A DNA stretch of 64,000 nt from an uncultured Nitrososphaerota archaeon (GTDB lineage Archaea > Thermoproteota > Nitrososphaeria > Nitrososphaerales > CADDZS01): positions 512,001-576,000 of the forward strand of contig CAWCYI010000004.1 of assembly GCA_963799845.1 (NCBI GenBank). The letters run 5' to 3'. Numbering within the stretch: position 1 is the first letter of the stretch; every line of letters begins with the position of its first letter. Of the stretch, positions 44,526 through 64,000 are shown piece by piece. The translations under genes were made by a program, and so were the position numbers. A model generated the notes under the pieces. That model saw nothing but the letters and a program-made list of their open reading frames with translations. It had not been told where the DNA came from and ran no database searches.

Positions 44526-44964
44526 AATGCAATACCGGTAGTATTTTCTCTTACTGCTCTATATTTAGGTACCTTTTGTGTAAGTAGGATTCCTCTAGAA
44601 CTTCCATAAAACGGGCAAAAGACGCGAAAATTTTTCCATTCGATGATTTCGGCGAAGAACACGGCGAGGGAATGTATCTGAAATCTAATAGAACGATTTA
44701 TTCAACGCCGGATTGAATCCGGGAAACCGATCTACCGAAATTTAAAACCCTTCAAACCATTCGACGACAGTTAGCAAGGAATCCTAATGGACGGTTAACA
44801 GAGCCAAGAATTCAGTTGATTCGCAACTTTGCGTTTTCGAAGGGTCTTCCTGTTCTTCTTCTCGTACCTTTGGTTTTTTTTGCTTCCCAATGTAATTGTT
44901 TAACCTTTATTGATTTATTATGCAATTTTTACCCTGTTCTACACGGGAGCGCAATTCTGCGTAC

Positions 44965-45122
44965 CGAAGAGCTCATTTCAAGCCATTGTAAAGTGGGGGG
45001 CCCTCTTGGTGGAGCTCCGCATCCGCGCGTATGAACTCGTAGATTTATTTTCTAGCAGCTCGTTTCAAGCTCCGTTTGATTGAAACAGCTACTTCTTGGC
45101 TATCAGATCGATCGCAGCTCAA
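44965..45122 (+). repeat. AGCT-rich non-coding element, partial copy
   Basis: Homologous to the reverse complement of 63125-63255 (gggccc...cagctcgtttc.agct...attgaaacagct...ctatc) and of 63404-63423 (gaagagctc.tttcaagc). Confidence 0.7.
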
Positions 45123-45273
45123 GGAACTACTGAGCACCAGATTCGTCAGGTATCCTATTCCCTCACACCACCCAAGATCACAACCAGATCTCCCCTCGTG
45201 ACGTGAAAACTCCCAGATCAAGACAAAATTCGTAAATATCCGTTGATATTAAGATATTAGCTGATTTTTAATA

Positions 45274-47202: not shown

Positions 47203-47254
47203 GGTACTATTTCGATAATAAAATCAATATAGGTCCCTCCTTCACGAGTGATCC

Positions 47255-47623: not shown

Positions 47624-47629
47624 CGTTTC

Positions 47630-48403: not shown

Positions 48404-48531
48404 CTTTCAATTCTCGTTATATGCGTGATGCATCCAGAGTATTCAGAATCGCTATCGCAGATTCATCCCGCTTATTAGAGAAAAATGCAGCTTGTGAGTG
48501 CAATCATCTTTTTCTGAGTTGAAACCACCTG

Positions 48532-48867: not shown

Positions 48868-48894
48868 AATCTATCTGTCCCTCAAGATATTTGA

Positions 48895-49464: not shown

Positions 49465-51717
49465 AATAAGCGAGTGAACGATTTCAGGAGTAGCGGGCGC
49501 GAAGTTTATCTCAGATCCTCCGATGGCAGAAAGTGCGTCATTCAGAGCGTTGAATACTGCAGGATACGCAGCTATCGTCCCGCTCTCTCCGGCTCCCCGA
49601 GCTCCGTTGAGCGTGATCTTTGATGGAGTTTCTATGTGGTACACTTCAATGTCGGGGCTTTCCATCGACGACGGGATCAGATAGTCCATGAAGCTCGAAG
49701 TGAGTAGATGTCCTTCATGATCAAATACAAGTTCTTCGTAAATTGCGCCTCCGATCCCGTGTATGACACCGCCGTGGATCTGTCCATCGACTATCGCCAT
49801 GTTAATCACGCGGCCAGCATCATCCACCGCCACATACCTTTTGATCGCAATCTTTCCTGTCTCACGATCTAAGACAAGGGCGCAGAGATGTGCACCGCTT
49901 GCGAAGGTTGGAGCGCTCATCCTAAACTCGGTACTCGAAGAGATTTCGGTAACGCCTAACTTCGCAAAAAGATCTCCGATCGTCATCGAATCTCCAGAAG
50001 AACGTATCGCGCCACCGCGAAAATCAAATTGAAACTCATCTCCCATGACCTTCGACGCGTTCTCGACAAGTTGAGCCTTCAACTTTCGTGCAACCTCCAC
50101 AGCCGCGCTCCCCCCTGCTGCAATTGAGCGACTACCGAATGTCCCGGTTCCAAGCGGGATCAGATCGGTGTCCCCGTATACGACCCGGACCTTTTCGAGT
50201 GGAACGTCCATCTCCTGAGAGACTAGTTGCGCCAGCGTGGTCTCAAGCCCTTGACCATGCGGGGACGACCCGGTGAAAAGGACTAGAAATCCCCGTGCAT
50301 CCATGACGAGCTTGGCCGTCTCCGTAAATTGAGATCCAGTGTCCTCAATCTCGGTGCAAATTCCCAAACCCGCAACTCCACTGGAATTTTTCTCTAGTGA
50401 CTCGCGGTTGAATTTCTCTCTCCATTCGACCATCTCGCTATAGTCGCCGGATTTTTCAAGCGTGTCGAGAAGGAGTGGATAGTTCGCGCTGTCGTAGATG
50501 AAACCGGCCCCGTTGTCATACGGAAATTCTTCCGGCAGGATGATGTTTCTCCGTCGGAGCTCGACCGGATTGATCTTGAGCTCTTTGGCCATAATGTCAA
50601 CCGCTCTCTCGATGAAAAAGCAAGCTTCCGGCCTACCCGCTCCGCGCACTGGACCAGATGCCGCCTTGTTGGTCACGTAGACCGCCGCCTTCAGGTCGAG
50701 ATTTGGAATCCTGTAAGCGCCGGGGAGCAATCTGAGCGTCAATCCCGCCATGACACTAAGCGTGCCGGAAATCCCGGCATCTGTTTCGATATTCGCACGA
50801 AGAGCCACAAATTTTCCCTCGGCATCGCACGCAAGCTCAATATCGCAGTATTCGTCGCGGCCCGGTGCGGTCTCAAGGAGATCTTCGGTCCGCGTGGACA
50901 CCCATTTTACAGGTAGGCCGGTCATCCGTGAAAATATGCATGCGAGCGCATTCTCGGGGTTTGACTGCGCGCCCTTTGATCCAAAACCACCACCCACGTC
51001 CTTCACGATAACGTGAAACTTTTCCTTCGGCATCTTCAACTCCTGGGAAAGATAGATCTGCAGCCTGTTGGCAGACTGGACGGTCGCGTGGACCTCAAAG
51101 ATTCCGCTTTCCGTATCGTATCTTGCAAGGACGGCCCTCGATTCGATCGGAGTTGCAGCCTGTCGTTTGATTCCCATCCTTTCTCTGACCACGTGCGCGG
51201 CCGATTTTATCGCGGCATCCGCGTTGCCCTTCTTCGACTCGGTCCTCAGTGCGACGTTCTCCTTCCATTGTTCGAAGAGTAGCGGATTGTTTCTCTTCGC
51301 TTCTTCGATAGTTGTTATCGGCGGCAGCTCTTCGTATTCTACCTCGACGTCGTCTATCAAATCTTCCGCCGCGTACCTGCTTTTTGCCACGAGTGCGGCG
51401 ACGGCTTCCCCAACGTAGAGGGCTTTGTCTGCCGGCAGGTGGTAGCGGTTTGCTGGTTTTTGCATTGGGAACTGGACGAGCGGCGAGACGTCAAGCTTCA
51501 AGAGCTCCTCACCGGTCAGGGAAGCGATGAAATCGGGTGATTGCGCTGCTTTCGAGAAATCAATCTTCTTGATCTTAGCGTGCGCGTAAGGGCTCCTAAT
51601 TATTCCAAGATATGCCTGGTTTTCGAACTTTATGTCATCAACGTAGGTGCCGGCACCCGTTATCAGTCGAGCGTCTTCTACCCTGCCTTTTGGTTGCTGC
51701 TGATTTTCTCGATCCAT
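49453..51717 (-). CDS. Xanthine oxidase family molybdopterin-binding subunit (CoxL/CutA-like)
   Basis: RVEDARLITGAGTYVDD, DVGGGFGSK, VRGAGRPEA, HGQGLET, GTFGSRS, GAGESG; lacks the form I AYXCSFR motif. Confidence 0.93.
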   Translation of the reverse strand: MDRENQQQPKGRVEDARLITGAGTYVDDIKFENQAYLGIIRSPYAHAKIKKIDFSKAAQSPDFIASLTGEELLKLDVSPLVQFPMQKPANRYHLPADKALYVGEAVAALVAKSRYAAEDLIDDVEVEYEELPPITTIEEAKRNNPLLFEQWKENVALRTESKKGNADAAIKSAAHVVRERMGIKRQAATPIESRAVLARYDTESGIFEVHATVQSANRLQIYLSQELKMPKEKFHVIVKDVGGGFGSKGAQSNPENALACIFSRMTGLPVKWVSTRTEDLLETAPGRDEYCDIELACDAEGKFVALRANIETDAGISGTLSVMAGLTLRLLPGAYRIPNLDLKAAVYVTNKAASGPVRGAGRPEACFFIERAVDIMAKELKINPVELRRRNIILPEEFPYDNGAGFIYDSANYPLLLDTLEKSGDYSEMVEWREKFNRESLEKNSSGVAGLGICTEIEDTGSQFTETAKLVMDARGFLVLFTGSSPHGQGLETTLAQLVSQEMDVPLEKVRVVYGDTDLIPLGTGTFGSRSIAAGGSAAVEVARKLKAQLVENASKVMGDEFQFDFRGGAIRSSGDSMTIGDLFAKLGVTEISSSTEFRMSAPTFASGAHLCALVLDRETGKIAIKRYVAVDDAGRVINMAIVDGQIHGGVIHGIGGAIYEELVFDHEGHLLTSSFMDYLIPSSMESPDIEVYHIETPSKITLNGARGAGESGTIAAYPAVFNALNDALSAIGGSEINFAPATPEIVHSLISRS

Positions 51718-51785
51718 TCTGCCCCGTTCCTTTAGAAAAATAAAATTGGAAAAGTAAACTATTCCGAGACCTCATATGCCTTGTG

Positions 51786-54700
51786 TTACGAGAGTCTCTG
51801 CGCAGCCCGGCTGAGGAGCATCTCCTTGGAAACTCCCAGCGGGTCGAGGACGCTTGCGCAGCAATCAGCCAAGAGCTCGATGTATCGCTTGGAATCGTAA
51901 TCGTTGTAATTTTCATTTGCGAATTCTTGCGGGTACGATCTGTCCATCCCCTTGCTTTCGTATCTCGTAATCACGTAGGAGATTGATTGTCCCGCCTGGA
52001 GCTCCAGGCCTTCGTTTTCAAGTTTCAGAGCCGCGTTGACCTGGAGCTGGCGCTTTGAAGAGTATTCACCGGGCTTTTTTGACAGCTGTCTCGTGATCAT
52101 GAGGTCGAATGGGGAGATCCTGTGGTCCTCCAGATTTTTTGCGTAGTTTTCAAAAATTTGAACGCCCGATGTACTCGCACATTCTCTCAGCTCCTGCTCG
52201 TTGTTGCAGAGTTCGAGTTTTGTCAGTATCTCTCCCTGGCATTTTTTGAAGTACGCCGGCGTATCGTGTCGTCTGTGTTCGATTCCCCGCACTTTCAGCT
52301 GATTTCCTTCGAAACACCCGAAGTATCTGTTCGTGATGCTTCTCGTCCTCGGATGAACTTTGCTGGGCAAAAACACGATCCACTTGTAGATGCCCTCCAG
52401 CGAAGCGTCGAATCCGGTACTTGCTTTGATTTCTCTGCAGAGCTGTTCGTAGTCATCTCTTGTTGCATTTTTCTTGTAGAGCCAGAGCGAGTCCACTATG
52501 CCGTGCATGACCCGGAAATTGAATGACTCTGCTGTCTGCATAGCTTTGACGAGAGTCTCCCTTGCAAGAGTGCAGACTGCGATGTGCGAATCGATCTTTC
52601 CGAATTTTGCGTTCCGGTATGAAAGATACCCGAAGCAATTGTGTGTGAAGACTGCTCCTTCTCCTGTAAAGAATCCAGGGATTTCGTTATTGGCAAGCTG
52701 AAAACAATAAACGTAATCGTCGGTTCTATCCAGTTCCTCGATTTTTCTTATTCTGGCAAATCCGAGAATCGCTCTGAAACATTCGTTTCACATTTTCAAA
52801 TGAAACTTCTGATTCTACTCTTAGTTTCTTTGCGGCGATCCTCTCGATCGTTATAGCTGTTCTGTATGGACAAGCCGTATCTCTTTGATCCATTCGGGGT
52901 GTCCTTATGGTACGTGCTTCCCTTGCCAGTAATACTAAGTTAGATTCTTCTGCAGGAAACATTTGGTATACAGGATGGCTGCAATTCAAGTTTCCATTTT
53001 GGTCACACGAATTTTCCAATGCAGGTTCCAAGATAGCGCGATGCGCTACTTTCAAGTACTTCCATTCAGAGATCTCTCTAAGAGTTTCAGGCCCGACAAA
53101 ATTTATGGTGTATAACGCGTTAATTGGCGGTTTAGAATGTGAAGCTATTCTGAAACCCAAACTCAGTGTAGCTGCGAGATAGCCAATTTGGTTCACGAAG
53201 TCTTTTGACGCTGTGGCAATGCTGGCAAAATTTCTGGCTTTATTCATACTCCCGTCGCCTGCCAGCATTCCTTCCAAGAAACCGCGCGCTACGATTTTGT
53301 CAGAATCAAATATTATCTGAGGGACGTTGAGCTTTCCTTTTTCAGAAGTATGGGGAATCTTGAGTACTCTTTCAATAAATTTGACAAGTGCCAAGTTGTT
53401 TATCTGAAGTACGTACATGTTCACATCTGTCTCCTTGTAAATCCGGGGTGATACTTGGAAGATTGACTCTGATATCTTTCGAGCGTTTTCAAGGAGATCA
53501 GGTTCGAAGTAGCCTATGTCCAGCCGAATGTAGGTGTTAGTTGTGCTCCCATCAGAGACGTAAAGACCGAGAAAGAAACCGAGCTCTTCGTTTATCGGTA
53601 TAACGGCAGGTATCCAGCTAGTTCTTCCGCGCTTTCCCTTTACTCTTCCAATTCCTACCCGCAGGGTGTTACGTAATTCAAAAGGAATGTTGAGAAGATG
53701 GAAGAACAGGAGTGGAATTGTTCCTGTCTTAATCCATACGCGAATAGCTTGACTACTGTATCCTGCCTTCATTGATTCTTTCAGTACGGCGTCTCTATTC
53801 TCCAGTATCTTCTCCGATAAGATTGAACCAGTTACTCTCCAGCGACCCGATTCAAAGTCCATCGACTTGACTAGGGCGTAAATCACATCGATGAACTTCT
53901 CGCTATTTTGCGACGATGGTAGTTTTTTTGCTACTGGAATGAAATTCCCTTTTTCGAGTTCTGAAGCTTGTTTGATCTCCAGATTTCCGTTTTTCAGCAA
54001 ATAAAATGGGTGATTGGGAGTTGCCACAACGCTTCTTCCATCGTCCATAGTGATTTGGAGCAACTTTTGTCGGTTCGGTACCTTGAGCAGTTTCTCGATT
54101 CTGCAAAATTTTGATTTGAAATTGTTTCCAATGCTGGCGACAGATATGTCTGAGGGACAATCAATGATGCCTTCCTTCTCCCCAGCTAAACTGTCAATAA
54201 AATTACCAATTTTTGCAAGTTGCACCAGTCCGTTTTTCTTGATTAAAACTGTTGATTCTTTGGCGAGACAGCAGACCAAAATCCACTTCAACGAGGCCGA
54301 TCTTTCACTGTAGATATTCCTCAGTGTATCATCGGTCTCGAGACTTCTGAGTCTCTTGTACTCCTTTCTTTTGTCCAGTGGGAGCACCAGGCTCCTCGCG
54401 ATTATGCCTTCTCTCTCGCAGATGTGCATCCCGAGCTCTTCCACCCAGTGTTTTCTCGAATCAGGACAGCACTCGCAGTTGATGGTCTCGGCGCTAATGT
54501 TGTATTTTCTGATTATGGAAGGGTACAGGGAGGCAAAATCGATCTCGCCGATGTGTTCGTATACGCCGCTCTTCTGCGGCTTGAACACCATCCCGCCCCG
54601 GTCTGCAACGAAGAGATCATACCCATTTTTCCCGTCTTCGACGATTTCTGGCTTCCACGGGACCAAAAGGTCTTGCTTTGTCGCGTAGTAAAACTGCAGG

Positions 54701-55705
54701 CTACTGAGGCACTTTCCGATGCTCGCCCGCATGGAAGTGTGGAGCGGAATCCGGCACAGGCGGGAAACTTCGAACAGACCCTGGAGCCGGCACTGGTCGT
54801 AGATGAACGTGTTTTCTTCATCCAGGTGCAGCCGGCCGAACAGCCGGTGGGTCGCCGGTCTGTACATGATTTTGCCGTAGGAGAAGTAAGTCTTTCCAGA
54901 ACTCTTCGGCACGTAATTGTCGATTGAATCGTCCCTGTTCAGGTTTCGAAGGTCGTCCAATCCATAACTTCTTGCTCTCGAATACAGGAACGGGAGAACG
55001 AACGAGTCTCCTCCGACGGTCAGCACGAGATCGGGATCGTAGCGCGCTAGTTCGCGGGCCGCGTCGACTATCATCTGTGATTCAGCGCTTTCAAATTCGA
55101 TTTTTTTCTCCGGTGAATCGTCGGGAAAAGTTGTGAGCGAGATCGCCTTGAGCCTTGAATCCATCCTCGGGACTCGATCGGAGACTTTTATCTCCAGCCT
55201 GAGAGTCTTGAGTTTTGGCGTCCCGTCAGCTGTAGCTCGTAACGCTGTCCAGGAGGAACCATTCCCTGATCGATCCATCCGGGCCGACATCCGCATCGAT
55301 CCGCGCCAGCGGAAAGAGATCTTTTTCGTAAAAATACAGCTGCTCCGGAAGAAAATCGACGTTGTACAGCTGCAGCATGTCCGGGTGGCGAAATATCTTC
55401 GAAAGAAATGTTGCGAGTTTTTTCCCGCTTCCAGCCTGTTTCAGTTCTAGCTCGAGTACTTCGGCCTTCTTCCTGCTGAACGGATCTATCCGCTTGTATT
55501 TCCTTCGCGTGAGCGAGACTAGATCGGAAGACTCGCCTGCCGAGCTCAGGTAATCGAGGTCGTTTGCGCCGGCGGCTGCGTAGATTCTCGCGCGCCACTC
55601 CCTGTCCTCAAATTTTACTGCCTCTCCATCGTTTTTCTGCACCCAAAAAGTCATGCCTCCCGCCTTGGAAGGATAGCAGTCGAGCAGATAGCCCTGGAGC
55701 AGCAA
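51786..55705 (-). CDS. polB2: Family B DNA polymerase, PolB2 group, intein-containing, with two apparent +1 frameshifts (~55227, ~52767)
   Basis: Motif A EIDFASLYPSII; motif B KWILVC/CFGY after splicing; PolB2-type motif C HGIVDSLW; KVRGIEHRRHDTP. Removing two bases gives a 1305-aa precursor and a 761-aa mature protein. Confidence 0.92.
52638..54270 (-). mobile_element. Intein with LAGLIDADG homing endonuclease (~544 aa)
   Basis: Block A CLAKESTV; block B ATPNHPF; FFLGLYVSDGS and FLEGMLAGDGS; blocks F/G YVYCFQL...FFTGEGAVFTHN followed by +1 Cys; more AT-rich than the exteins. Confidence 0.95.
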
Positions 55706-55714
55706 GTGAGGAAA

Positions 55715-55999
55715 TCACGCGCCGCGCAAAAACTCGCTTTTCTTTTGATCCAGGAGATCTATCGTCTTCTGCTGCGAGATGAGAAGGCTGAGTAGAAAGG
55801 CTTCCGTTTCGTAACCTTCCTTGCAGTTCTCTACGGCGTCTTTGAAAGTCCAGATTTTTTCCAGCATCCGTCTCAGGAGCTGCCGATCTTCAGACCTCAA
55901 AGCTTCTGCAAAAGATCTCCAAGAATCTGCTTCATCCACGAGTTTTGCTTTCTTGTCTTCGTCCGGTGTTTCATCGTTTTTCTTCAAATGTTTCTCCAC
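55715..55999 (-). CDS. PolB2-associated small helical protein (arCOG07300-like), paralogue 2
   Basis: WRSFAEALRSEDRQLLRRML...EAFLLSLLISQQK. Confidence 0.8.
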   Translation of the reverse strand: MEKHLKKNDETPDEDKKAKLVDEADSWRSFAEALRSEDRQLLRRMLEKIWTFKDAVENCKEGYETEAFLLSLLISQQKTIDLLDQKKSEFLRGA

Positions 56000-56695
56000 T
56001 CAAATTTCAGACTCTGCAAACTGCTTCGAGTAGTGCTTTGCCAGCGTTGCTCTCTGCCCAGATGGCGAATGAAGTTCGATGGCTGTATCGCACTTGGAAA
56101 AAAGTGATCCGACCCTTTCCTTTGAAGAGGCTACGACGAACATGCCGTTTTTTTTCTTGCCTGAGGCAATCCTGGCCAGGTCCTGCGCGATCAGAAGCTG
56201 CAGTACCTCGGTTTCGTCCGCGGTGTTGTCCTCCTCGTTGAACATGCTGTCTATGCCGGTGACGAAAACCGATCTGACCGGTTCCCCGGTTTTGGAAATT
56301 TCTTTTCCGAGCTTGTCTGAAACGAGCTTTCGAAGCTGGTAGCAGGTGAAGGCTCGAAATATCGTGATGCGTTCGCAAAACTTTCTTGCGGACGCTTCGC
56401 TCTTGATCGGCGCGCACTTTTCCACGATCAGGTACGGATCAAAAGAGTTTGCCGCATCGATGAAGATCGCCTGCTCACCGAATATTCGGATCGAATTTCC
56501 GCAGAGTATGTTCATCAACAGATCAGCATTCTTGCCGTACAAAAATGTCAGAGTGTTCGGAGCGAGCCCTCCGGAAAGGAGCGCGTCGATTTTGTTCCCA
56601 AAGACGAGCCCCCTCATCTGCGAAGCTTTTTTCACGAAGCGCATTGCACCGAGAAGGTCGTCGTCGTGTTTTTTCTCCTGCTGATACTCTAGCAA
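56000..56695 (-). CDS. Inactivated RadA-like ATPase (iRadA) of the PolB2 operon
   Basis: IDALLSGGL, degenerate Walker A (LYGKNADLL), FIDAANSFDPY, RAFTCYQL. Confidence 0.88.
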   Translation of the reverse strand: MLEYQQEKKHDDDLLGAMRFVKKASQMRGLVFGNKIDALLSGGLAPNTLTFLYGKNADLLMNILCGNSIRIFGEQAIFIDAANSFDPYLIVEKCAPIKSEASARKFCERITIFRAFTCYQLRKLVSDKLGKEISKTGEPVRSVFVTGIDSMFNEEDNTADETEVLQLLIAQDLARIASGKKKNGMFVVASSKERVGSLFSKCDTAIELHSPSGQRATLAKHYSKQFAESEI

Positions 56696-56708
56696 CTCGC
56701 CTTCCTCC

Positions 56709-56954
56709 TCAAAGAACCGTCTGGAGTAAAGACTCGAGCTGCGCTTCTCTCTCTAAAATAACCGCAAGCATCACGGAGCGCATGGGAACAAGTTTTACCG
56801 CGGCAGAACAGGCTTGGGAATTCTTGTCGCAAAACTGCAACATTTCCAGTAACAGCAATTTTTCCCTTTTGGGCAATTTTTTCCCGAAGGTCTGCATCAT
56901 TCGGGTGATCTCCTGCGAAATCACCATCTGAAATGCCGGAATCGTCCTGCCCAA
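56709..56954 (-). CDS. PolB2-associated small helical protein (arCOG07300-like), paralogue 1
   Basis: MGRTIPAF...SQACSAAVKLVPMRSVMLAVILE. Confidence 0.85.
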   Translation of the reverse strand: MGRTIPAFQMVISQEITRMMQTFGKKLPKREKLLLLEMLQFCDKNSQACSAAVKLVPMRSVMLAVILEREAQLESLLQTVL

Positions 56955-56958
56955 GATA

Positions 56959-56997
56959 TTTACAGTATAATTACAGTAATTTTACTATAGTTTTAAG
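56959..56997 (-). promoter_or_regulatory. PolB2 operon promoter with repeated TACTGTAA boxes
   Basis: Minus strand reads CTTAAAA-ctatagtaaaat-TACTGTAA-tta-TACTGTAA-atatc-TTG start. Confidence 0.6.
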
Positions 56998-57009
56998 CAT
57001 TTGTGGGTA

Positions 57010-57175
57010 GTCTCTTCATATACGAGTTCCCATTGATTCATTAAGAAAAAAATTTTCTGCGTTTCACACACGTGAGTACTTTTTGGCCGAAGAGCTACGT
57101 TCGAGCGCTGTTAGCTCAGAAGAGCTTGAAACGAGCTGAACGGAGCTCAGAGAGCTCGAAACGCCGAGTTCAATT
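57010..57175 (+). repeat. AGCT-phased non-coding element, internally deleted copy
   Basis: Matches the reverse complement of 63394-63530, then the exact 20-mer gagctcgaaacgccgagttc matches the reverse complement of 63111-63130. Confidence 0.88.
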
Positions 57176-57215
57176 CTTGGAGGTCAGCCGGTAGCTGTCC
57201 CGAAATCACGGCCGG

Positions 57216-57971
57216 TCAGCTTTCAGCGTCGTCCCGCGGATCGTATCCGATGACCTCTTTCGCGTGCGAGATGTCCCAGAAACGCCACTTGTTCTTTGAG
57301 ACGCCGTAGAAGACGTCGTATCTTACCTCGGTTTCAAGTGATTTTTCAACGAGTTGGACGAGATCGCGATGAGACAGCCACGTCGCAAAGAAGCGAACCT
57401 CCTCCGGTCTGGGCCGCTCGTAGGGGCGAACTGTTCCAATCCGAAGGCATATCACGGAGACTCCGTATTCACCCGAGTAATACTGCCCGAGCCCCTCCCC
57501 GAAAAGTTTGCTCGCGCCGTAGAAGCTGTCGGCTCTGGCGGGGGATAGATGCGACACCATTGAGATTTTGGAAGTATTGATTCCGCGAAACTCTCCCTTG
57601 ACTATGGAGGAGATCGGCCAGTCCTTCTCGTATAGTCCAGTGACATGGTTTGAACTCGCAAAAATTATTTTCCCGATCCCGTGCTTGCGCGAGGCCTCGA
57701 AAACGTTGTAAGTTCCCAAGATATTTTTCGAGTACACAGAGTCCCAATCAGCCTCGAGCGAGGAGTTGGCGGCGAGATGGATGACGGCATCCTTGCCCTC
57801 GAAGAGATGTTCGATATCATCCAGTTTCGTGATATCTCCCTTCACGCACTCTTTCCCGTCTGTTTCAACGTCGAGGCAGGCAAGTTCGTACCTGTCATTC
57901 AGAGCGGGCTTGAGGATTGTGCCGATTACTCCACAGCCACCGGTTATCAGCAATCGTTTCCTTGTGCTCAT
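57216..57971 (-). CDS. NAD-dependent epimerase/dehydratase, uronate dehydrogenase-like
   Basis: TGGCGVIG, FASSNHVTG, DSFYGASK, LRIG, WLSHRD, YGVSKN. Confidence 0.9.
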   Translation of the reverse strand: MSTRKRLLITGGCGVIGTILKPALNDRYELACLDVETDGKECVKGDITKLDDIEHLFEGKDAVIHLAANSSLEADWDSVYSKNILGTYNVFEASRKHGIGKIIFASSNHVTGLYEKDWPISSIVKGEFRGINTSKISMVSHLSPARADSFYGASKLFGEGLGQYYSGEYGVSVICLRIGTVRPYERPRPEEVRFFATWLSHRDLVQLVEKSLETEVRYDVFYGVSKNKWRFWDISHAKEVIGYDPRDDAES

Positions 57972-58183
57972 ATTCGCAAGTTCTCCAACCTACAGTCGAG
58001 GAACCTCCTTTTTCAATCTGTTTTCATAAGCAGGCTTGACTGTCCAATCTGTTACGCTATCAAGAATCCCACAGTGGGTTTTGCTAAAAAAAAGTCAGCT
58101 ATGATCCATGTAACTTCGGGTGGTTTACTTTCGTTTTGATAATGCATAGTCCGAGTTCAGGAAAAATTCAACTCGCCATCGAG

Positions 58184-59399
58184 TTACTTGAGGGAATCGA
58201 GAGAAAGAAGAAAAGCACCCGCGATCCCAATCAGTGCAATAGAGGCGAGGGCCCCGAATCCAAGCGAGAAGCTGCCGGTTCTGTCCAGAATTATCCCAAA
58301 AAGAACAGGCGACACGATTGAGCCGACGTTACTGAGAGTGTTGAACACTCCGAAAGTCATCCCGGCTGCGGAAACTCCCTGTCTGGAGGCATAAGGTATT
58401 AGAGAAAAATCTGTCGCAAAATATAGGTTTGCCCCAAAACCGATCCCAAAAATCAATACAATCGTTGAGCCGAGCGATCTTGAAATCCCGAAGAGTAAAG
58501 TAAACAGAAAAAGAAGTACCATTGAAACACCGATGGTTTTTCTGCTCCCGAGTCGGCGGTCGGAAATGCCGCCGCAATACGACCCTATGATCGTTGCGAC
58601 GCCTATCAGTGCCACGATCCCGCCGGCGGTCGAGTTTGAGACCCTGAAGGTTGAGATGAGATAGTCGGACGCCCATGCGAATGACCCAAACGTCACTGCC
58701 ACGGATGCAAAGTTGGGAAGCATCAGCGCAAACATGTTTCTGGTGAAAAGACCCCTTAACCACACCTTCTGTCTCGCGAGGGTTCCGGAGATAGTGCTTG
58801 TCGTCCAGATTGCCGGAAATATCAGCAGGATTGCTGTAACGATCGAGTATAAAGTCGTGGCCAGTAGTGGAGGCTTCCAGTCGATTCCGGAAATCAGGAG
58901 CGGAAGAAGCGATGATGCGACTAGCCTGTCCCGCCCCGTTTGCAGATCCGAAAAGACCCATCGCCTTTCCGAGCTCATTTCTAGGGAACCACTGGGATAG
59001 GAGCCGCACCATGGAGGGAAAGACTACGCCCCCGGAAGCTCCTGCAATAAATCGTGATGCGAGTATTGCGTCAAATGAGCCGCCCGTGATAAACGGTCCT
59101 GGTGCAAGCGCCATGACGAACGAGGCCACGAGAAGTGTCCTTGCCGACCCAAACCGATCGGCGAGGTATCCTCCAGGTATCTGCATGGAAGCATAGGGGA
59201 TGAAGTAGAATGAGGTCACAAGACCGGTCTGCGCGTTTGAGAGAACAAATTGGTCCGTGACAAGTTTTGAGATCGAAGGAAAGTCGAGGTTGGAAAGCAC
59301 GAAGGAGACTGTAGCTGCAACCACGATGACGAGGACAAAATATCTCCGTTCGAGCGGTGCGTTGTGCCCCATGAGCGAATTCTCGCGATCTTGGGTCAC
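58184..59399 (-). CDS. MFS transporter, +1 frameshift near 58925
   Basis: QIPGGYLADRFGS motif A; the two overlapping ORFs join at GAGQ/LVASSLLP. Confidence 0.85.
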
Positions 59400-59477
59400 C
59401 GATTATCTTAGTCTAGAAAAGCAATTCTGTACAAGTCTGGACTTCTTGGCACGATACTGCTCTAAAAAAACCTATTC

Positions 59478-59572
59478 GGAATGAAAAACGTCCCTCCGGG
59501 GTGCGGGTCAAGCCCACGGCTTTCCTTCCTTAAACGGATAGTCAAGCTCTGCCCCGGAAAGAACGTCATTCC
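59478..59572 (-). ncRNA. Putative structured RNA element upstream of the MFS gene
   Basis: Long closing stem ggaatgacgttctttccgggg / ccccggagggacgt-tttt-cattcc; G-U pairs occur only on the minus strand; followed by a T7 run. Confidence 0.45.
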
Positions 59573-59969
59573 AACTTTCGAGAACCCATTTAGCAGTTGT
59601 GGATTCCCGCCTCGATATCGGAAAGGGGAATAATTTGATGGGCAACCTTCGAGTTTGTGTCGGACTCTTGAAGTATTTGATTCCACAGTCCTACATTACC
59701 TGCTTGTGGCGAACGGAAATAAGAAAAAGAGAAATTCTCTGCAGTCAATCCGTTGGATATTAGAAACTGGCCCAAAGAATGGTAAGAAAACTAGGTTCCT
59801 CTCAAGTTTTCTTATGACTACCAGAATTTGACAATCTGTATACAATTTTTAGATAACAGAACCAAATATTTCATGATAAAGTCGAGCAAAATCTCGATCT
59901 CAACTCTGGCCAAATACGCATAATATCGTAATTGGCCTGCACGACGTTTCTACAGAGTATTCATTCCAG

Positions 59970-60410
59970 ATGTCGGAACAAGAAGCACAGGCCTCCGGAA
60001 GAAAGTCGTTTTTGGGATTCAACGATTGGTTAGAACCTGATGGTCCGGTAGACGAACCGCGTAGCGCGTCATCCGAAGAGCCGGTGATAACATTCGTTGA
60101 GCTCGCGATGCTCTCTATACTAGATTCTACTCCAATGACGGGGTACGTTCTCAGGAAGACGCTGCTCACGCAGTTCGGGCTGAAGACGAGCTTTGGCACG
60201 CTTTATCCCCGACTGAAAGCGCTCGAAAAGTCCGAGATAATCAAATATTCCGAGAATGTGGGTCGGCTCGCCACCCGCAAGTCCGGGATAAATTACGAAC
60301 TTACCCCATATGGTAAAAAGATCTTTAATTCGAACTTGAGATTATTTCAAGAGTACTTTAGAAAAATTCAGTCGAATGTCTCCGCTCGATTTCTTAAAAC
60401 GTCACAGTGA
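59970..60410 (+). CDS. PadR family regulator
   Basis: ILDSTPMTGY...SFGTLYPRLKALEK...YELTPYG. Confidence 0.9.
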   Translation: MSEQEAQASGRKSFLGFNDWLEPDGPVDEPRSASSEEPVITFVELAMLSILDSTPMTGYVLRKTLLTQFGLKTSFGTLYPRLKALEKSEIIKYSENVGRLATRKSGINYELTPYGKKIFNSNLRLFQEYFRKIQSNVSARFLKTSQ

Positions 60411-60658
60411 AATCCAGCTCAGTTTGATTTTTAGCGTATCAAATCACGAGCAGCCCCGATTTTTTGAATCCCAAAATTGCCCGAGTTTCGCCAGTTTTGG
60501 ATACCTAATATCCCGCAACCAAAAATCGATACTATCTGCGTTGGATATATACGTGATATATAGCTCACAAATCCATTTACGCGATCAGCATCTCTTAGAT
60601 TTCTAGTCAAGTATTAACCAGAAAACCCTTGCGATCAAAAATAGAGTGAATAAGAATA

Positions 60659-62029
60659 ATGTTTCTAAAAGACAGTAATGGTGCTAGATCTTCGGCGGCT
60701 ATTTCATTTAGCGTCTTGACGCTTTTCATTGTCTCTTCGATCTTTGTGTTGAGTGCCCTTGTGCCTACTACCGCTGCTCTAAATAATACGACGCCAGTCT
60801 TCAATGCTGCGTTTAACCTCAGTAGCGATAAGGGGAATGCAATGTACCCCATGGATGCGAACTCTGGTAGCCACGTCTACGTAGTGTGGACTGAGGGACA
60901 TGGAGGGATAATGTTTCGGTCCAGTTCGGACAACGGATCTACGTGGACTCCACTTTTGACTTCTCCGCCAATGAAGTTGAGCGTCGGTAGCTCATACATG
61001 CAGTATCCGGTGATACAGGCGAATGCGTCCAATGTTTATGTCGCCTGGACTCAAACGGTCGGTGGATTCCAGCAGATATATTTCGTCTCAAGCACTAATT
61101 ACGGCGCAAATTTCAGTACACCAATCGATGTTGATGGAAATACCACCACACAATGCGTCACGCCCGTTATCGGGTCTTGGGGAACTACCGTCTATGTCGC
61201 GATGGCGTGCGGCGGTGGTGGCGGTGTAAAGGGCTTTTCATATGTTGTCGCAAGTACAAAAGCCGGGGCCGCGGGATCATGGACAAAGCCGCTCTTGATA
61301 TCGCCGTTCCATGAGCCACAGCTTTACGCATCCGCCTTCGCGGGAGTTGCAGTTTCCGATCAAGGGATCGTGGTGACACAGGATAATGGTACTACTTGGA
61401 CGCCAGTGGTTATCTCTGGTTGTTGCGGCGGCGAACCGTGGGTGTGGGGATATGGCTCGAACATCTACATTGCCTGGGAAACTAAGGGTAGTATGAGCGA
61501 GACTTACTATGCGTACAGCCACGACAACGGTACCACGTGGACTCCAGAAATTTTGCTCTCGACGACAATCACGGATGCATGGGGACCAAAGATAGCAGCG
61601 TGGGGAAATAACGTGACGATAACCGTGACAGTGCATCCTGCCAGCCATTCAGCCCAGGATTACATCTACGTGTCGCACGACGCGGGCGTCAGCTTTACGG
61701 GTCCGATCGCCGAGAGTGGAACTTCGACAGACATCGGAACCACTCTGAATGTGAATGAGTATGGCAACTACCTGTTTGCGATCTACGGGAGAGAGACGAC
61801 TCCCAGCGGCACCTGGATTACGTATGCGACGTACAGCACCGATGGTGGAACAACCTGGGTTGCCGCGCCGGGAATTAACATCTCGAACAATGCGAACGGA
61901 GAAGCAGCGAATCCCAGTGACATTTCTTCGGGCTGGGTAATGAATTTCGGACCGGCGGCGTTCGCTTGTTGGTCTTACACGCCTTCCGGATCGTCAATTT
62001 CGCAGATATACTTCGCTTCATCTTCCTGA
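60659..62029 (+). CDS. Secreted BNR/Asp-box (sialidase-like) beta-propeller protein
   Basis: Signal peptide; repeated SxDxGxTW (SSDNGSTW, SHDNGTTW, STDGGTTW). Confidence 0.9.
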   Translation: MFLKDSNGARSSAAISFSVLTLFIVSSIFVLSALVPTTAALNNTTPVFNAAFNLSSDKGNAMYPMDANSGSHVYVVWTEGHGGIMFRSSSDNGSTWTPLLTSPPMKLSVGSSYMQYPVIQANASNVYVAWTQTVGGFQQIYFVSSTNYGANFSTPIDVDGNTTTQCVTPVIGSWGTTVYVAMACGGGGGVKGFSYVVASTKAGAAGSWTKPLLISPFHEPQLYASAFAGVAVSDQGIVVTQDNGTTWTPVVISGCCGGEPWVWGYGSNIYIAWETKGSMSETYYAYSHDNGTTWTPEILLSTTITDAWGPKIAAWGNNVTITVTVHPASHSAQDYIYVSHDAGVSFTGPIAESGTSTDIGTTLNVNEYGNYLFAIYGRETTPSGTWITYATYSTDGGTTWVAAPGINISNNANGEAANPSDISSGWVMNFGPAAFACWSYTPSGSSISQIYFASSS

Positions 62030-62128
62030 GAGAGTAGCGAGGAGTCATCCCTCTCCCTTTCTCTGAGGAGCTTTTTTCTGCATAGTTTTCTTATGGTTGA
62101 AAATATCGCGTGATCGTTTCCAACTTTT

Positions 62129-63028
62129 CTAATCTAACGATTCCAAGATCCTTTCAACATATTCCTTGGATTCCGCAGCAAGATCCACGAAGGACTTGCC
62201 CGTAATTCCGTAGCGGTAGGGAATCATGATCATCGGCCCATCAAAATTAATCTCGACCAGCGTCCTGACCATCGACTCGATGTCCAGAGACCCCTTACCC
62301 GGAACTAAATGCGAGTGTAAAGATATGATGTCCAGGTGGTCCCGGATCCAGGCCTGGACCGGCTTTATCGAGTCGGCCATGTGAACCTCGGAGAGTACGC
62401 CCTGGACAGCCGCATACCTGATCATGGCGCTGGCGTCGGCTTCCATCCGGCCGGCGAGGACGAATGTGTGCGGAGCCACGTAAATGTATTTGACGTTCTT
62501 GCAACCCGACTCGCGGATGAGGTCGACGCACGGATCGGATTCCTCGATGAAATCTCCGGGGTGCGGCATGAAAGCGAGCTGGATTCCCTCATCACGAAGA
62601 ACAGGATCGAGCTCCCTGACTGATTTTGTCCACGCCTCTTCATGGTCCAAGTGATAGAGCGGTCTCCCGCCCATCTGGGAGTAGATCTGCCTGCAGCCGA
62701 ATTTCTTGCAAAGCTTGATCAACTTTGTGAATTGCGCGACGCCCCTCTTCCGGACGATCTCGTATTCGGGATCGGCGGGCGAGCTGGGGAGCTGCTCCAT
62801 CGCGCCGGATAGGCCGAGGGCGTTCCAGGCGTTGAAGGTCACGAGGTCCGTGGGCTTTAATCCCGATTTCTCGAGCTGAGTCTGCACCGATTCGACGACC
62901 TGATCGTTTGGGATCATTCCCATTTCGATACCCGGAAACAGCATCGGGTGGAGCGCGACGTATTCGAAGCCCCGGTTTTTGAGATGATCAAAAGCGTCAA
63001 GGGAGTGCGCGTAGGCGGTTAACTTCAA
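62129..63028 (-). CDS. Sugar phosphate isomerase/epimerase (xylose isomerase-like TIM barrel)
   Basis: PHPGDFIE, PHTF, VHMADS, HLVPGKG. Confidence 0.85.
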   Translation of the reverse strand: MKLTAYAHSLDAFDHLKNRGFEYVALHPMLFPGIEMGMIPNDQVVESVQTQLEKSGLKPTDLVTFNAWNALGLSGAMEQLPSSPADPEYEIVRKRGVAQFTKLIKLCKKFGCRQIYSQMGGRPLYHLDHEEAWTKSVRELDPVLRDEGIQLAFMPHPGDFIEESDPCVDLIRESGCKNVKYIYVAPHTFVLAGRMEADASAMIRYAAVQGVLSEVHMADSIKPVQAWIRDHLDIISLHSHLVPGKGSLDIESMVRTLVEINFDGPMIMIPYRYGITGKSFVDLAAESKEYVERILESLD

Positions 63029-63104
63029 TTTAGGTTATCCTGCCTACCTGAGATTTCAGACCCTTATAGCAATTAACTCAGCCCAGTCCGATATGATAAG
63101 AATT

Positions 63105-63532
63105 CAAAACGAACTCGGCGTTTCGAGCTCCGATTGAGATACAGATAGGCGAAACAAGCTGTTTCAATTGAACAAAGCTGAGAAACGAGCTGAACAGAAA
63201 GTACTCTCTAGAGTGCTTCGAGCACGGTTGCAGAACTCTCCTGGGGGGGCCCTTTCCATACATAATCGGCTAAAATTTCCAGAACATCCTCGAAAACTCG
63301 AAAATCCAGTACGAAATGATCAACTCGACGATTGTCGAGTAACATCTCCATCAATGTTCTTTGTGTCACCGTTCAATTCGTTCTGAGCTTACTAAGCTCC
63401 GTTCAGCTTGAAACGAGCTCTTCTGAGCTTACAGAGCTTGAACGTAGCTCTCTCGTCAAAAGGTACGCGCGGTTGCGAAATCGCACAATTTTTTCTATAT
63501 AAGAATCAATGAGAACTGGTATTTGAATGACG
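63105..63532 (-). repeat. AGCT-phased non-coding element, longest copy (~430 bp)
   Basis: Contains the segments shared with both 57010-57175 and 44965-45122; seven AGCT sites at 63386-63449. Confidence 0.88.
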
Positions 63533-63590
63533 AGGGTTTTCTTGAGTCAGTTAGGTGCTTCTGCCTGGATTTCATATTCCTAGAATATCG

Positions 63591-64000
63591 TCACGTTGCG
63601 TTGACCACCAGTTCTCCATTTTGCATGTATGGATGGATAGCACAGAAAATGCTGCAATAGATTCTGAAGGTTCCAGCCTGATTTGCTGAGAACGTTAGCG
63701 TGTATGTTTCTCCCGGGCGCACGGTTGCGCCGCTGTTAAAATAGTGAGTTATCGCAAAGCCGTGGGATTCTGATGAAGCACAGTTGAAAACATGTATTTC
63801 GACCGTTTGCCCTTGGTAAACCTGAATCACGGGCCACGGTGTCGAAAGATGAAAGGCACTTCCGTTCATACCCTCATAATTGTTTCCCGGATCCGATTCT
63901 ATGATTGTGAAAGAAACGGTTGAACTCGTGGAGGAGCTGTTCGCGATCCCGGGGGCGCTCTGGGTGGTACTGATCACGGAGCATGGAGAATTCGCATTAG
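63591..64000 (-). CDS. Cupredoxin domain protein (CuA-like), 5' end outside the window
   Basis: SHGFAI...GTFRIYCSIFCAIHPYMQNGEL. Confidence 0.88.
   Translation of the reverse strand, partial: NANSPCSVISTTQSAPGIANSSSTSSTVSFTIIESDPGNNYEGMNGSAFHLSTPWPVIQVYQGQTVEIHVFNCASSESHGFAITHYFNSGATVRPGETYTLTFSANQAGTFRIYCSIFCAIHPYMQNGELVVNAT

What the first reader, a model, noticed from the sequence alone, without database searches (positions are those of the whole stretch)
57010..63532. Non-coding element family with helically phased AGCT arrays
Seen: AGCT at 57093, (AGCG 57104), 57113, 57123, 57134, 57144 and 57153, and at 63386, 63395, 63405, 63416, 63426, 63435 and 63446. Spacings are all 9-11 bp, so the sites fall on one helix face. 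The tetramers and their phase are kept while spacers diverge. Both arrays follow a conserved leader (cattgattc, TATA-like tract, A-run). No credible ORF is present. Known: AGCT is a reported m4C methylation motif in Thaumarchaeota, and clustered methylation sites (GATC at E. coli oriC, CTAG clusters in haloarchaea) mark regulatory loci. Inference: an undescribed protein-binding platform (methylation-sensitive switch, or partition, origin or chromatin-positioning site), a promoter-driven ncRNA, or a non-autonomous mobile element. One copy abuts the PolB2 promoter.
Basis: partly seen in the sequence, partly recalled or inferred. Interest (0 to 1): 0.85.

Follow-up and report, generated by a model that had tools for sequence, protein, structure and literature searches.

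The report
Interspersed AGCT-array repeat family in Nitrososphaerales
The two AGCT arrays are real and belong to a roughly 60-100-copy, non-coding, intergenic repeat family confined to a few related soil archaea; it is an unusual, well-conserved relative of bacterial REP/BOX-type repeats whose function is still unproven.

Summary
Both loci carry seven AGCT (one AGCG) at 9-11 bp spacing behind a shared AT-rich leader, in opposite orientation. They belong to a dispersed family in this 4.6-Mb Nitrososphaerales MAG: 37 near-full copies and 99 non-overlapping nhmmer hits. A third, diverged member lies at window 44.9 kb. Of 38 phased AGCT runs in the genome, 36 lie in this family.

Copies are intergenic and not oriented with respect to genes. 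They have no terminal inverted repeats, no target duplications and no IS partner. The array is a quasi-palindrome that grew from one hairpin, AGAGCT-N7-AGCTCT. AGCT-bounded segments flip between copies.

The family is abundant in two congeneric species, sparse in one or two relatives, and was not found in 108 genomes of other families. Syntenic copies are 87% identical against 56% at neutral sites. They often belong to different subfamilies, which points to constraint plus gene conversion.

My best reading is a REP/BIME- or BOX-like modular repeat with a promoter-like leader and a terminator-like end. An sRNA gene family and a methylated protein-binding platform are not excluded. No RNA or methylation data were available.

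The parts
57015..57178 (+). Copy A, short form of the repeat element (about 165 bp): leader, AGCT array, terminal hairpin
   Evidence: Best nhmmer hit of the family (C4:569005-569176 = window 57005-57176). Aligned with 36 other near-full copies and with 34 other copies from two species.
57015..57023 (+). Upstream TATA-like box (TTCATATAC; TTTAAATA-like in the family consensus)
   Evidence: An AT-rich box at a fixed distance from the conserved box in nearly all copies, with a degenerate sequence. Promoter function is inferred, not shown.
57025..57039 (+). Most conserved leader box, AGTTCCCATTGATTC
   Evidence: 90-100% column identity across copies.
57040..57056 (+). AT-rich tract (ATTAAGAAAAAAATTTT). 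In other copies, including copy B, it reads TTATATAG plus an A/T run.
   Evidence: A TTATATAG box at the same distance from the core hairpin is kept in the diverged relatives of genome G003. The A-run is the insertion point of an IS110-like element in two other copies.
57066..57079 (+). Variable short palindromic segment (ACACACGTGAGTAC here; GCAACCGCGCGTAC and ACACGCGGGCGTGC in other subfamilies)
   Evidence: alignment of 72 leaders. The sequence varies by subfamily, and most variants keep a short dyad. No formal covariation was found.
57091..57109 (+). Core dyad AGAGCT-N7-AGC(G)CT, the ancestral nucleus of the family
   Evidence: Most conserved block of the array. It is the only array part present in the G003 relatives. 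The 24-nt pattern occurs in 4 of 121 genomes of the order.
57093..57156 (+). Phased AGCT array: 6 AGCT plus 1 AGCG, mean period 10.0 bp. It is a quasi-palindrome with 27-nt arms (57100-57126 and 57134-57160) around the 7-nt spacer 57127-57133.
   Evidence: arms 74% complementary. The central spacer TGAAACG is CGTTTCA in copy B and other copies.
57152..57178 (+). Terminal hairpin GAGCTCG-AAACGC-CGAGTTC followed by T-rich AATTCTT (terminator-like)
   Evidence: Folded. Present at the end of 13 copies that also have the leader box. Variants keep pairing through G.U wobbles on this strand, with two compensatory changes.
63098..63530 (-). Copy B, composite long form (about 430 bp): leader, 7-AGCT array, a middle region with a GGGGGGGCCC palindrome, a second short array, and the same terminal hairpin (63111-63130)
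   Evidence: nhmmer hits at window 63368-63531(-) and 63107-63213(-). Long-form alignment of 13 copies. Sequence.
63386..63449 (-). Phased AGCT array of copy B (7 AGCT)
63495..63527 (-). Leader of copy B: upstream TATA-like box (63519-63527), box AGTTCTCATTGATTC (63503-63517), TTATATAG (63495-63502)
44895..45125 (+). Third, diverged family member (type II unit): leader-like part, core dyad, GGGGGGCCC palindrome, short AGCT array. It resembles the distal half of the long form.
   Evidence: nhmmer hit C4:556908-556983 = window 44908-44983. Sequence. Intergenic.

Best explanation
The loci are copies of a lineage-restricted, non-coding, modular interspersed repeat. In anatomy and genomic behaviour it resembles bacterial REP/BIME, BOX or Correia elements more than a classical MITE.

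Each unit has three modules:
- a conserved AT-rich leader with TATA-like boxes;
- a quasi-palindromic array of about 10-bp AGCT-anchored sub-repeats;
- a terminal hairpin followed by T-rich sequence.

The array grew in the common ancestor of two species from a single hairpin-forming dyad, AGAGCT-N7-AGCTCT. AGCT is its own reverse complement, so every stretch between two AGCT is flanked by inverted repeats. Such stretches invert, delete and duplicate, most likely by template switching in hairpins during replication (inferred). That preserves both the tetramers and their 10-bp phase without any selection on phase.

The family spread to intergenic sites by a mechanism that leaves no terminal inverted repeats or target duplications. 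The mobilising enzyme was not found. The family has since mostly stayed in place, while copies exchange sequence by gene conversion and the family consensus stays under constraint.

Shown: family membership, copy number, anatomy, intergenic location, restricted distribution, synteny, conservation above neutral, segment flips, and absence of TIR/TSD.

Inferred: the way it spread, the template-switch origin of the flips, hairpin formation in vivo, and any effect on neighbouring transcripts.
For: Copy number and spread:
- nhmmer iterations gave 54, 143 and 161 hits on 5 of 9 contigs.
- 37 copies are near-full. There are 99 non-overlapping hits, 58 of them scoring at least 60 bits.

Genomic context:
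- 48 of 58 copies do not overlap any ORF of 100 aa or more, in a genome about 80% covered by such ORFs.
- Orientation relative to neighbours is unbiased: 18 between convergent genes, 31 between co-directional genes (14 sense, 17 antisense), 8 between divergent genes, and 1 at a contig end.

Modular, mosaic structure:
- Short forms measure 144-150 nt from leader box to hairpin end (8 of 13 two-ended copies). Long forms measure 208-457 nt.
- There are two array classes, unit deletions, and reverse-complemented AGCT-bounded segments. Some of these differ between syntenic copies, for example L016 against C4:1519730.
- The quasi-palindrome's loop is exactly the spacer that flips.

Distribution:
- BLAST found 57 matches in G000 and 41 in G006, 1-2 short matches in two further congeners, and none in 9 of the 13 genomes of the family.
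- The core pattern occurs in 4 of 121 genomes of the order (30, 29, 3 and 1 sites). It occurs in 0 of 108 genomes of the other 19 families.
- The G003 copies have the leader and one dyad but no array.

Stability and conservation:
- At least 15 of 27 relative-species copies sit at syntenic sites.
- 13 syntenic pairs are 87.4% identical (1417 of 1622 locally aligned nt). Four-fold degenerate sites of 31 flanking genes are 56.1% identical (4485 sites).
- The syntenic partner is the closest relative in only 2 of 11 cases, which indicates exchange among copies.
- One relative-species copy joins the 5' flank of copy A to the 3' flank of another G000 copy, in three separate contigs (L004, L067, L080). 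This indicates recombination between copies.
- An IS110-like element and a short derivative are inserted at the same leader position in two copies. REPs are targeted in the same way in bacteria (recalled).
Against: - No act of transposition was caught. The two sites that lack the element in G000 (orthologous to L003 and L011) are not clean empty sites, and one looks like a deletion remnant.
- There are no TIRs. The best local score for copy A's ends is 5, against a shuffled mean of 6.2.
- There are no TSDs. The mean longest flank repeat is 4.5 nt, against 4.9 for mismatched flanks, over 13 copies.
- No transposase shares the element's ends. The genome's two Y1 transposase genes are IS605-type, paired with TnpB, and have no similarity to the element.
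- Conservation far above neutral at stable positions is not expected of dead selfish DNA. It fits a host function, as RNA or as a binding site, at least as well.
- The TATA-like box at a fixed distance is kept even in the diverged G003 relatives. Together with the terminator-like 3' end, this suggests a transcription unit.
- Gene calls used for context are crude (greedy ORFs of 100 aa or more), and local alignment inflates identity somewhat.
Confidence: 0.55

Rival explanations
1. Each copy is a small RNA gene in a multicopy sRNA family. Transcription starts about 25-30 nt downstream of the TTATATAG/A-rich box and runs through the AGCU array. It ends at the GAGCUCG-AAACGC-CGAGUUC hairpin and the U-rich tail. 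This gives RNAs of about 110-140 nt (short form) or about 400 nt (long form). These could, for example, present repeated GAGCU motifs to an RNA-binding protein, as CsrB/RsmZ present GGA motifs (analogy recalled).
For: - TATA-like boxes sit at fixed positions in all subfamilies and in the diverged G003 copies.
- The terminal hairpin is followed by T-rich sequence in 13 two-ended copies.
- Hairpin variants keep pairing as G.U on the element strand in about 7 events, against about 2-3 that would favour the other strand. There are two compensatory changes, in L004 and at C6:339446.
- Sequence is conserved well above neutral.
- Orientation is independent of neighbouring genes, as expected of a self-contained transcription unit.
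Against: - No consensus fold: RNAalifold gives -7.5 kcal/mol, 10 pairs and no covarying pair in 35 sequences.
- Single-sequence folds are not exceptional. The z-score is -2.6 for copy A and -0.2 for copy B, and the folds differ.
- There is no Rfam match at E up to 1.
- Array segments are reverse-complemented between copies. That changes the RNA sequence drastically and is hard to reconcile with a sequence-specific RNA.
- Variants at AGCT positions show no strand asymmetry (my count from the alignments: about 8 against 6).
- The T-run after the hairpin is often short or interrupted.
Confidence: 0.2
2. The array is a DNA-level platform. Seven AGCT sites on one helix face, each a likely m4C methylation site in this phylum, bind a cooperative protein or position chromatin next to a promoter. 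Methylation state would modulate binding.
For: - The period is exactly 10.0 bp over 60 bp.
- Phase is kept even where an AGCT is lost, with spacings of 19-21, 30 and 40-41 bp.
- AGCT columns are four times better conserved than spacer columns overall, 2.5% against 10.5% mismatch.
- Tolerance of segment inversion fits an orientation-independent double-stranded DNA function.
- The core AGAGCT-N7-AGCTCT looks like a dimer operator.
- AGCT m4C is reported at 82-96% of sites in thaumarchaeal genomes and judged conserved in the group (passages; table).
- The genome encodes 12 matches to the N6/N4 methyltransferase family, 9 of them with E below 1e-30.
- Each site would act locally, which fits conservation at stable positions.
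Against: - Tetramer and phase conservation follow automatically from AGCT-bounded inversion and deletion, so they do not by themselves show selection.
- Most spacer columns are as conserved as AGCT.
- Many copies have truncated or restructured arrays while keeping the leader. Only 14 G000 copies carry a full run of seven; counting the relative's copies examined, 19 of about 70 do. The array is therefore the least constrained module.
- The G003 relatives have no array at all.
- None of the methyltransferases could be assigned to AGCT. All NCBIfam hits were far below cut-off.
- No candidate binding protein, no methylation data, and no positional or orientation pattern along the contigs.
Confidence: 0.12
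3. The element is the end of, or a remnant of, a known IS or MITE (for example an IS200/IS605-derived palindrome-associated element), a decayed repetitive coding sequence, a CRISPR-like array or a tRNA-derived element.
For: - Hairpins lie near both ends, and TIR and TSD are absent, as in IS200/IS605 derivatives.
- The genome holds 2 Y1 transposase and about 13 TnpB genes.
Against: - blastn-short found no similarity between the element (short and long form) and 2.5-kb flanks of all 14 TnpA/TnpB loci.
- There is no consistent reading frame.
- TRF finds no tandem repeat in the arrays, and the units are about 10 bp, not CRISPR-sized.
- ARAGORN finds no tRNA in window 44000-64000.
- The 23-nt core pattern has no match in viral contigs.
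Confidence: 0.04

Closest known systems
REP / BIME (REPIN) elements of Enterobacteria and Pseudomonas (recalled; no call)
   Same: Short imperfect palindromes combined into mosaic units in either orientation. Tens to hundreds of intergenic copies. No TIR or TSD. Positions partly conserved between related species. Targets of IS110-family insertion. They form hairpins.
   Different: No RAYT-type single-copy Y1 transposase flanked by the repeats. The unit is larger, with a long AT-rich promoter-like leader. The sub-repeat is 10 bp and anchored on AGCT. The host is an archaeon.
BOX elements of Streptococcus pneumoniae and Correia (NEMIS) elements of Neisseria (recalled; no call)
   Same: Modular A-B(n)-C build with a variable number of internal units. 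Dispersed intergenic copies. They carry promoter-like sequences and stable stem-loops. The mobilising enzyme is unknown or borrowed.
   Different: Correia elements have TIRs and a TA duplication, which this family lacks. BOX modules are 45-59 nt rather than 10 nt. There is no sequence relation.
Archaeal MITEs and palindrome-associated transposable elements (Sulfolobus, Haloquadratum) (recalled; no call)
   Same: Small non-coding dispersed elements in archaeal genomes, some without TIR or TSD.
   Different: Those share their ends with resident IS elements. No such partner was found here.
Iteron or centromere arrays such as parC of plasmid R1 (recalled; no call)
   Same: Several 10-11-bp units phased with the helix, next to a promoter.
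   Different: Those are one or two arrays next to par or rep genes and consist of direct repeats. Here there are about 60 dispersed copies, units in both orientations, and no adjacent partition or replication genes.
Hairpin-associated minute inversions in non-coding chloroplast DNA; quasipalindrome template-switch mutation in E. coli (recalled; no call)
   Same: The loop or spacer between short inverted repeats is found reverse-complemented between otherwise collinear sequences.
   Different: Here the stems are only AGCT plus 1-2 nt, and several adjacent segments flip independently.

Membership tests
MITE | Terminal inverted repeats | tested here: not met
   the best local alignment of the first 50 nt against the reverse complement of the last 50 nt of copy A scores 5. 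The shuffled mean is 6.2 and the maximum 10.
MITE | Target-site duplication flanking each copy | tested here: not met
   over 13 copies with both ends, the mean longest direct repeat between 40-nt flanks is 4.5 nt. For flanks of different copies it is 4.9 nt.
MITE / PATE | Ends shared with an autonomous IS in the same or a related genome | tested here: not met
   no blastn-short hit (E up to 0.05) between the element and +/-2.5 kb around 14 TnpA/TnpB loci. Other IS families were not surveyed systematically.
MITE / mobile element in general | Insertion polymorphism with a clean empty site | tested here: inconclusive
   two relative-species copies have no counterpart in G000, but the intergenic DNA is too diverged to tell. 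One site looks like a deletion remnant. Metagenome contigs are all of the 82-88% relative, not near-identical strains. Short-read contigs break at the repeats.
REP/BIME (REPIN-RAYT) | Short imperfect palindromes, intergenic, many copies, mosaic arrangement | tested here: met
REP/BIME (REPIN-RAYT) | Cognate RAYT (single Y1 transposase gene flanked by the repeats) | tested here: not met
   two Y1_Tnp genes, both in 94.5%-identical IS605-type units with TnpB. No family copy flanks them.
Rfam ncRNA families | Match to a curated covariance model | tested here: not met
   the only hit in window 56000-64000 at E up to 1 is a chance miRNA match (E 0.14) outside the elements.
Structured ncRNA (generic) | Conserved secondary structure with covariation | tested here: not met
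   10 predicted pairs, none with compensatory change. Only the terminal hairpin shows two compensatory variants.
Archaeal transcription unit | Mapped transcription start and end | not testable with these tools
   No RNA run holds the stretch. The promoter scan offered is sigma-70 type and was not used.
Methylation-site cluster (GATC at oriC type) | Sites methylated by a resident methyltransferase, with differential methylation or binding | not testable with these tools
   12 N6_N4_Mtase matches, but specificity is unassignable. No kinetic or raw long-read data were available (contigs only).
CRISPR array | 24-48-nt direct repeats with unique spacers of similar size | tested here: not met
   Units are about 10 bp. 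TRF finds no tandem repeat. Spacers are shared between copies.

The most novel reading that the evidence does not exclude
The roughly 60 copies are host-functional DNA sites. Next to a promoter-like leader they present a block of seven AGCT sites on one face of the helix. AGCT is the conserved orphan m4C motif of Thaumarchaeota. The sites would be read by a cooperative DNA-binding or chromatin protein in a methylation-sensitive way. They are kept by purifying selection at fixed intergenic positions in two species, and AGCT-bounded flipping is tolerated because only tetramers and phase matter. This would be the first dispersed epigenetic or nucleoid-organising element described in ammonia-oxidiser relatives.
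Probability: 0.12. Interest if true: 0.75.

Novelty: new variant of a known kind. Interest (0 to 1): 0.42.

Why it matters
Interspersed repeats of the REP/BOX type are well studied in bacteria. My searches found no description of one in Thaumarchaeota/Nitrososphaerales (listings only, no relevant title).

This family is unusually informative for four reasons:
- It can be traced from a single hairpin (G003) to seven-unit arrays (G000, G006).
- It shows recurrent AGCT-bounded inversions.
- It mediates at least one chromosomal rearrangement between species.
- It is far better conserved than neutral DNA.

It also concentrates the phylum's conserved m4C motif. That makes a concrete, cheap test possible with existing long-read data.

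For genome scanning, it explains why short-read assemblies of these organisms break at these sites. It also shows that a helically phased motif array can arise from repeat mechanics alone.

Tried and rejected
- Protein coding in the long form: rejected. All frames are similarly open, there is no consistent start, and indels are out of frame.
- Rfam: no family.
- tRNA-derived origin: none; ARAGORN found nothing. The T-arm-like look of copy A's end is not shared by other copies.
- Tandem repeat: TRF calls nothing in the arrays at score 30 or more.
- IS605/TnpB partner: none.
- IS110-like element as partner: rejected. It has one full and one partial copy and is merely inserted into the leader.
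- Viral origin: no match to the core pattern in viral contigs.
- Replication-related orientation or regular spacing: no clear pattern against cumulative GC skew. Spacings range from 1 to 331 kb.
- Expression: no RNA holder listed.
- Population variants: Logan contigs of four DNA runs stop at both elements, and the joints reported are between family copies. No empty site or flip could be read.
- AGCT methyltransferase: candidates exist, but none could be assigned.
- Literature on such repeats in Thaumarchaeota: the two searches listed nothing relevant. Supplements were not consulted.
- One search used a pattern into which I had typed one base too many. Its '1 of 201 genomes' is therefore meaningless. 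It was replaced.
- One search returned no answer and was repeated.
- Rows dropped: one search measured 13 syntenic pairs and left out the partial or ambiguous ones (L006, L008, L010, L028, L029). One search used 11 of these 13, because L013 and L024 lack the 5' leader in the alignment. One search used 24 of 35 rows, those at least 80% like the array consensus. Further syntenic pairs seen were not measured.

Full report
**1. Observation**

Successive spacings are 9-11 bp, and the mean period is 10.0 bp over 60 bp.

The two loci align over leader and array when one is reverse-complemented. Copy A is therefore on the plus strand and copy B on the minus strand.

AGCT is not over-represented in the window: 271 seen against 245 +/- 14.5 in shuffles. 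The clustering, however, is unique. Genome-wide there are 38 runs of four or more AGCT at 8-12 bp spacing. Of these, 36 fall in this family, and 14 copies carry all seven. Outside the family AGCT shows only codon periodicity. Inside it the autocorrelation peaks at 9-11, 19-21, 30 and 40-41 bp.

**2. A large repeat family**

The window is C4:512001-576000 of a 4.6-Mb, 9-contig, 47% G+C assembly. It is rated 86.7% complete.

- BLAST and three nhmmer rounds found 54, then 143, then 161 hits on five contigs.
- 37 copies are near-full. After removing overlaps, including self-hits of the palindromic array on the other strand, there are 99 hits, 58 of them above 60 bits.
- The window holds a third, diverged member at 44895-45125.
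- Copy B is a composite long form that extends to about 63100. It has a second short array and the same terminal hairpin.
- Short-read contigs from four soil DNA runs stop at both elements. Depth there is 55-108, against 6-9 in the flanks. This is the signature of a collapsed repeat.

**3. Anatomy**

Reading 5' to 3' on the element strand:
- a degenerate TATA-like box (consensus TTTAAATA);
- the nearly invariant box AGTTCCCATTGATTC;
- an AT-rich tract (ATTAAGAAAAAAATTTT or TTATATAG plus A/T);
- CTGCGTTTC;
- a short segment that differs by subfamily but is usually a small dyad;
- CTTTTTGGCCGAAG;
- the core dyad AGAGCT-N7-AGCTCT;
- the rest of the array;
- the hairpin GAGCTCG-AAACGC-CGAGTTC, followed by T-rich sequence.

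The array of copy A is a quasi-palindrome. It has 27-nt arms that are 74% complementary, around a 7-nt spacer. TRF does not see a tandem repeat, because only the tetramer is shared between units.

**4. How variable the array is**

In total 19 of about 70 copies have seven AGCT, with almost the same spacers: ACGTTCA, CTGTW, CAGAAG, TGAAACG, GAACGG, YAGAG. The spacers are therefore not free to diverge.

In the 24 of 35 aligned copies with this architecture, AGCT columns differ from consensus in 2.5% of cells and spacer columns in 10.5%. The spacer differences sit in three hot spots.

The striking variation is structural:
- The central spacer is TGAAACG in some copies and its reverse complement CGTTTCA in others, including A against B.
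- In locus L016 the block CTGTA-AGCT-CAGAAG is replaced by its reverse complement, compared with its syntenic partner in G000.
- A second array class carries CTGTTCAATTGAAACAGCT and is related to the first by a larger inversion plus a two-unit deletion.
- Single-unit and double-unit deletions occur.

AGCT is self-complementary, so all these events keep tetramers and phase automatically. I infer template switching in hairpins as the cause. This is not shown.

**5. Genomic context**

- 48 of 58 copies lie wholly outside ORFs of 100 aa or more, although such ORFs cover about 80% of the contigs.
- Orientation relative to neighbours is unbiased (18 convergent, 31 co-directional, 8 divergent, 1 at a contig end). 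The element is therefore not a dedicated promoter or terminator for a neighbouring gene.
- Copy A lies between the 5' end of minus-strand ORFs (56709-56954; 56000-56695, weakly RadB/Rad51-like) and the 3' end of an epimerase gene (57216-57971).
- Copy B lies between a cupredoxin-domain ORF (63591-63998) and a xylose-isomerase-like TIM-barrel gene (62129-63028).
- The intein-containing family-B polymerase ORF starts at 55296, about 1.7 kb from copy A.
- No relation to GC skew and no regular spacing was seen.

**6. Tests for known kinds**

- No Rfam family and no tRNA.
- No consistent ORF.
- No TIR and no TSD in 13 two-ended copies.
- No similarity to the flanks of the genome's 2 Y1-transposase and about 13 TnpB loci.
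- No hit in viral contigs.
- An IS110-like element (374-aa ORF, about 2.4 kb) and a derivative of about 570 bp interrupt two copies at the same point in the leader A-run. The IS has only one other, partial copy, so it is a guest and not the partner.

**7. Distribution**

- An exact 23-nt core pattern hit 13 contigs of one other public genome, titled Nitrososphaerales archaeon, and 34 metagenome contigs.
- Within the GTDB family (13 genomes), BLAST with copy A gave 57 matches in G000 and 41 in G006. It gave only 21-27-nt matches in two congeners and nothing in nine genomes.
- The core dyad pattern with one mismatch occurs in 4 of 121 genomes sampled from the order: G000 30, G006 29, G003 3, G008 1. 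It occurs in 0 of 108 genomes of the other 19 families. These are sampled, partly incomplete MAGs, so this means 'not found', not 'absent'.
- The three G003 copies share the leader (CCATTG..TC, TTATATAG, GCAACCGTGC, T-run) and one dyad, but have no array. The array is therefore an expansion specific to the G000/G006 lineage.

**8. Evolution between the two species**

- At least 15 of 27 relative-species copies lie at sites syntenic with a G000 copy. Six have no G000 copy nearby, and three lack flank information. More syntenic cases appear among the metagenome contigs.
- Flanking genes are 91.8% identical in protein. They are only 56.1% identical at 4485 four-fold degenerate sites in 31 genes, and intergenic flanks are unalignable.
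- Thirteen syntenic element pairs are 87.4% identical over 1622 locally aligned nt.
- The syntenic partner is the best match in only 2 of 11 cases. Some partners belong to different leader subfamilies.
- Mean pairwise identity is about the same within genomes (0.68 and 0.72) as between them (0.70).
- One relative-species copy, seen in three separate contigs, joins the PolB-side flank of copy A to the 3' flank of G000 copy C6:1054437. That is recombination between copies.

Together this means the copies are old and mostly sedentary, they exchange sequence, and the family consensus is constrained.

**9. RNA or DNA?**

For an RNA:
- fixed TATA-like boxes, kept in G003;
- a terminator-like end;
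- hairpin variants that stay paired through G.U on the element strand, plus two compensatory changes.

Against an RNA:
- no consensus structure and no covariation;
- unremarkable and inconsistent single folds;
- free reverse-complementing of array segments.

For a DNA platform:
- exact 10.0-bp phase;
- tolerance of inversion;
- the operator-like core;
- literature showing AGCT m4C at 82-96% of sites in thaumarchaeal genomes (passages; table);
- many N6/N4 methyltransferase genes in the genome.

Against a DNA platform:
- the array is the least conserved module and is missing in G003;
- phase conservation is mechanically explained;
- no methyltransferase could be assigned to AGCT.

No RNA run holds the stretch, and only contigs were available, so neither transcription nor methylation could be examined.

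**10. Verdict**

My best-supported reading (0.55) is a REP/BIME- or BOX-like modular interspersed repeat. It is new for Thaumarchaeota as far as my two literature searches show. Its AGCT phasing is a by-product of how its quasi-palindromic array grows and flips.

An sRNA gene family (0.2) and a methylatable protein-binding platform (0.12) remain open, because conservation is far above neutral.

Names of comparison families (REP/BIME, BOX, Correia, PATE, parC, chloroplast minute inversions, CsrB) are recalled, not taken from any call.

Noticed in passing
G000 C6:336646-339015 and C4:886298-886866 (outside the window): An IS110-like element (about 2.4 kb, 374-aa ORF beginning MMRNKSKK..IAGIDLG) and a derivative of about 570 bp with the same GGTTTTG...CAAAACC-type ends are inserted at the same position in the A-run of two different family copies. 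The IS has only one other, partial copy (C4:1287262-1288773).
   Followed up: partly
window 52726-55296 (-): The family-B DNA polymerase ORF carries an intein with a LAGLIDADG homing-endonuclease domain. The polymerase domain is only partly covered, so the gene may continue in neighbouring frames.
   Followed up: no
window 57217, 58925, 63180, 63192: Short-read contigs from independent runs lack one base at each of these places relative to the window. This suggests single-base indel errors in the assembly. It could explain apparently truncated or split genes, for example the MFS transporter ORFs 58184-58978 and 58329-59399 and the 251-aa epimerase.
   Followed up: no
window 56940-56990: An 11-bp tandem/dyad motif (ATAATTACAGT x2, TRF score 39) lies just upstream of copy A. 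It is well conserved in the relative species although it is intergenic. It may be a promoter or operator of the minus-strand gene cluster.
   Followed up: no
L004, L067, L080 vs G000 C4:569005 and C6:1054437: In the relative species a single element joins the flank found at copy A to the flank found at another G000 copy. This is a chromosomal rearrangement with its breakpoint inside the repeat, seen in three separately assembled contigs.
   Followed up: partly
G000 C1:2270-2433 (-) and L068: One family copy sits about 1.4 kb upstream of the 16S rRNA gene start at a contig end. It is syntenic in the relative species.
   Followed up: no
G000 C4:749808-751196 and C6:728208-729595: Two 94.5%-identical IS605-type units (Y1 transposase plus TnpB, some TnpB frames with in-frame stops). 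About 13 TnpB-type genes occur in the genome in all.
   Followed up: partly
G000 genome-wide: There are twelve matches to the N6/N4 DNA methyltransferase family. Three are ORFs of about 620-650 aa, two of which lie 3 kb apart at C4:210552-215529. That is an unusually large complement for a thaumarchaeon.
   Followed up: partly
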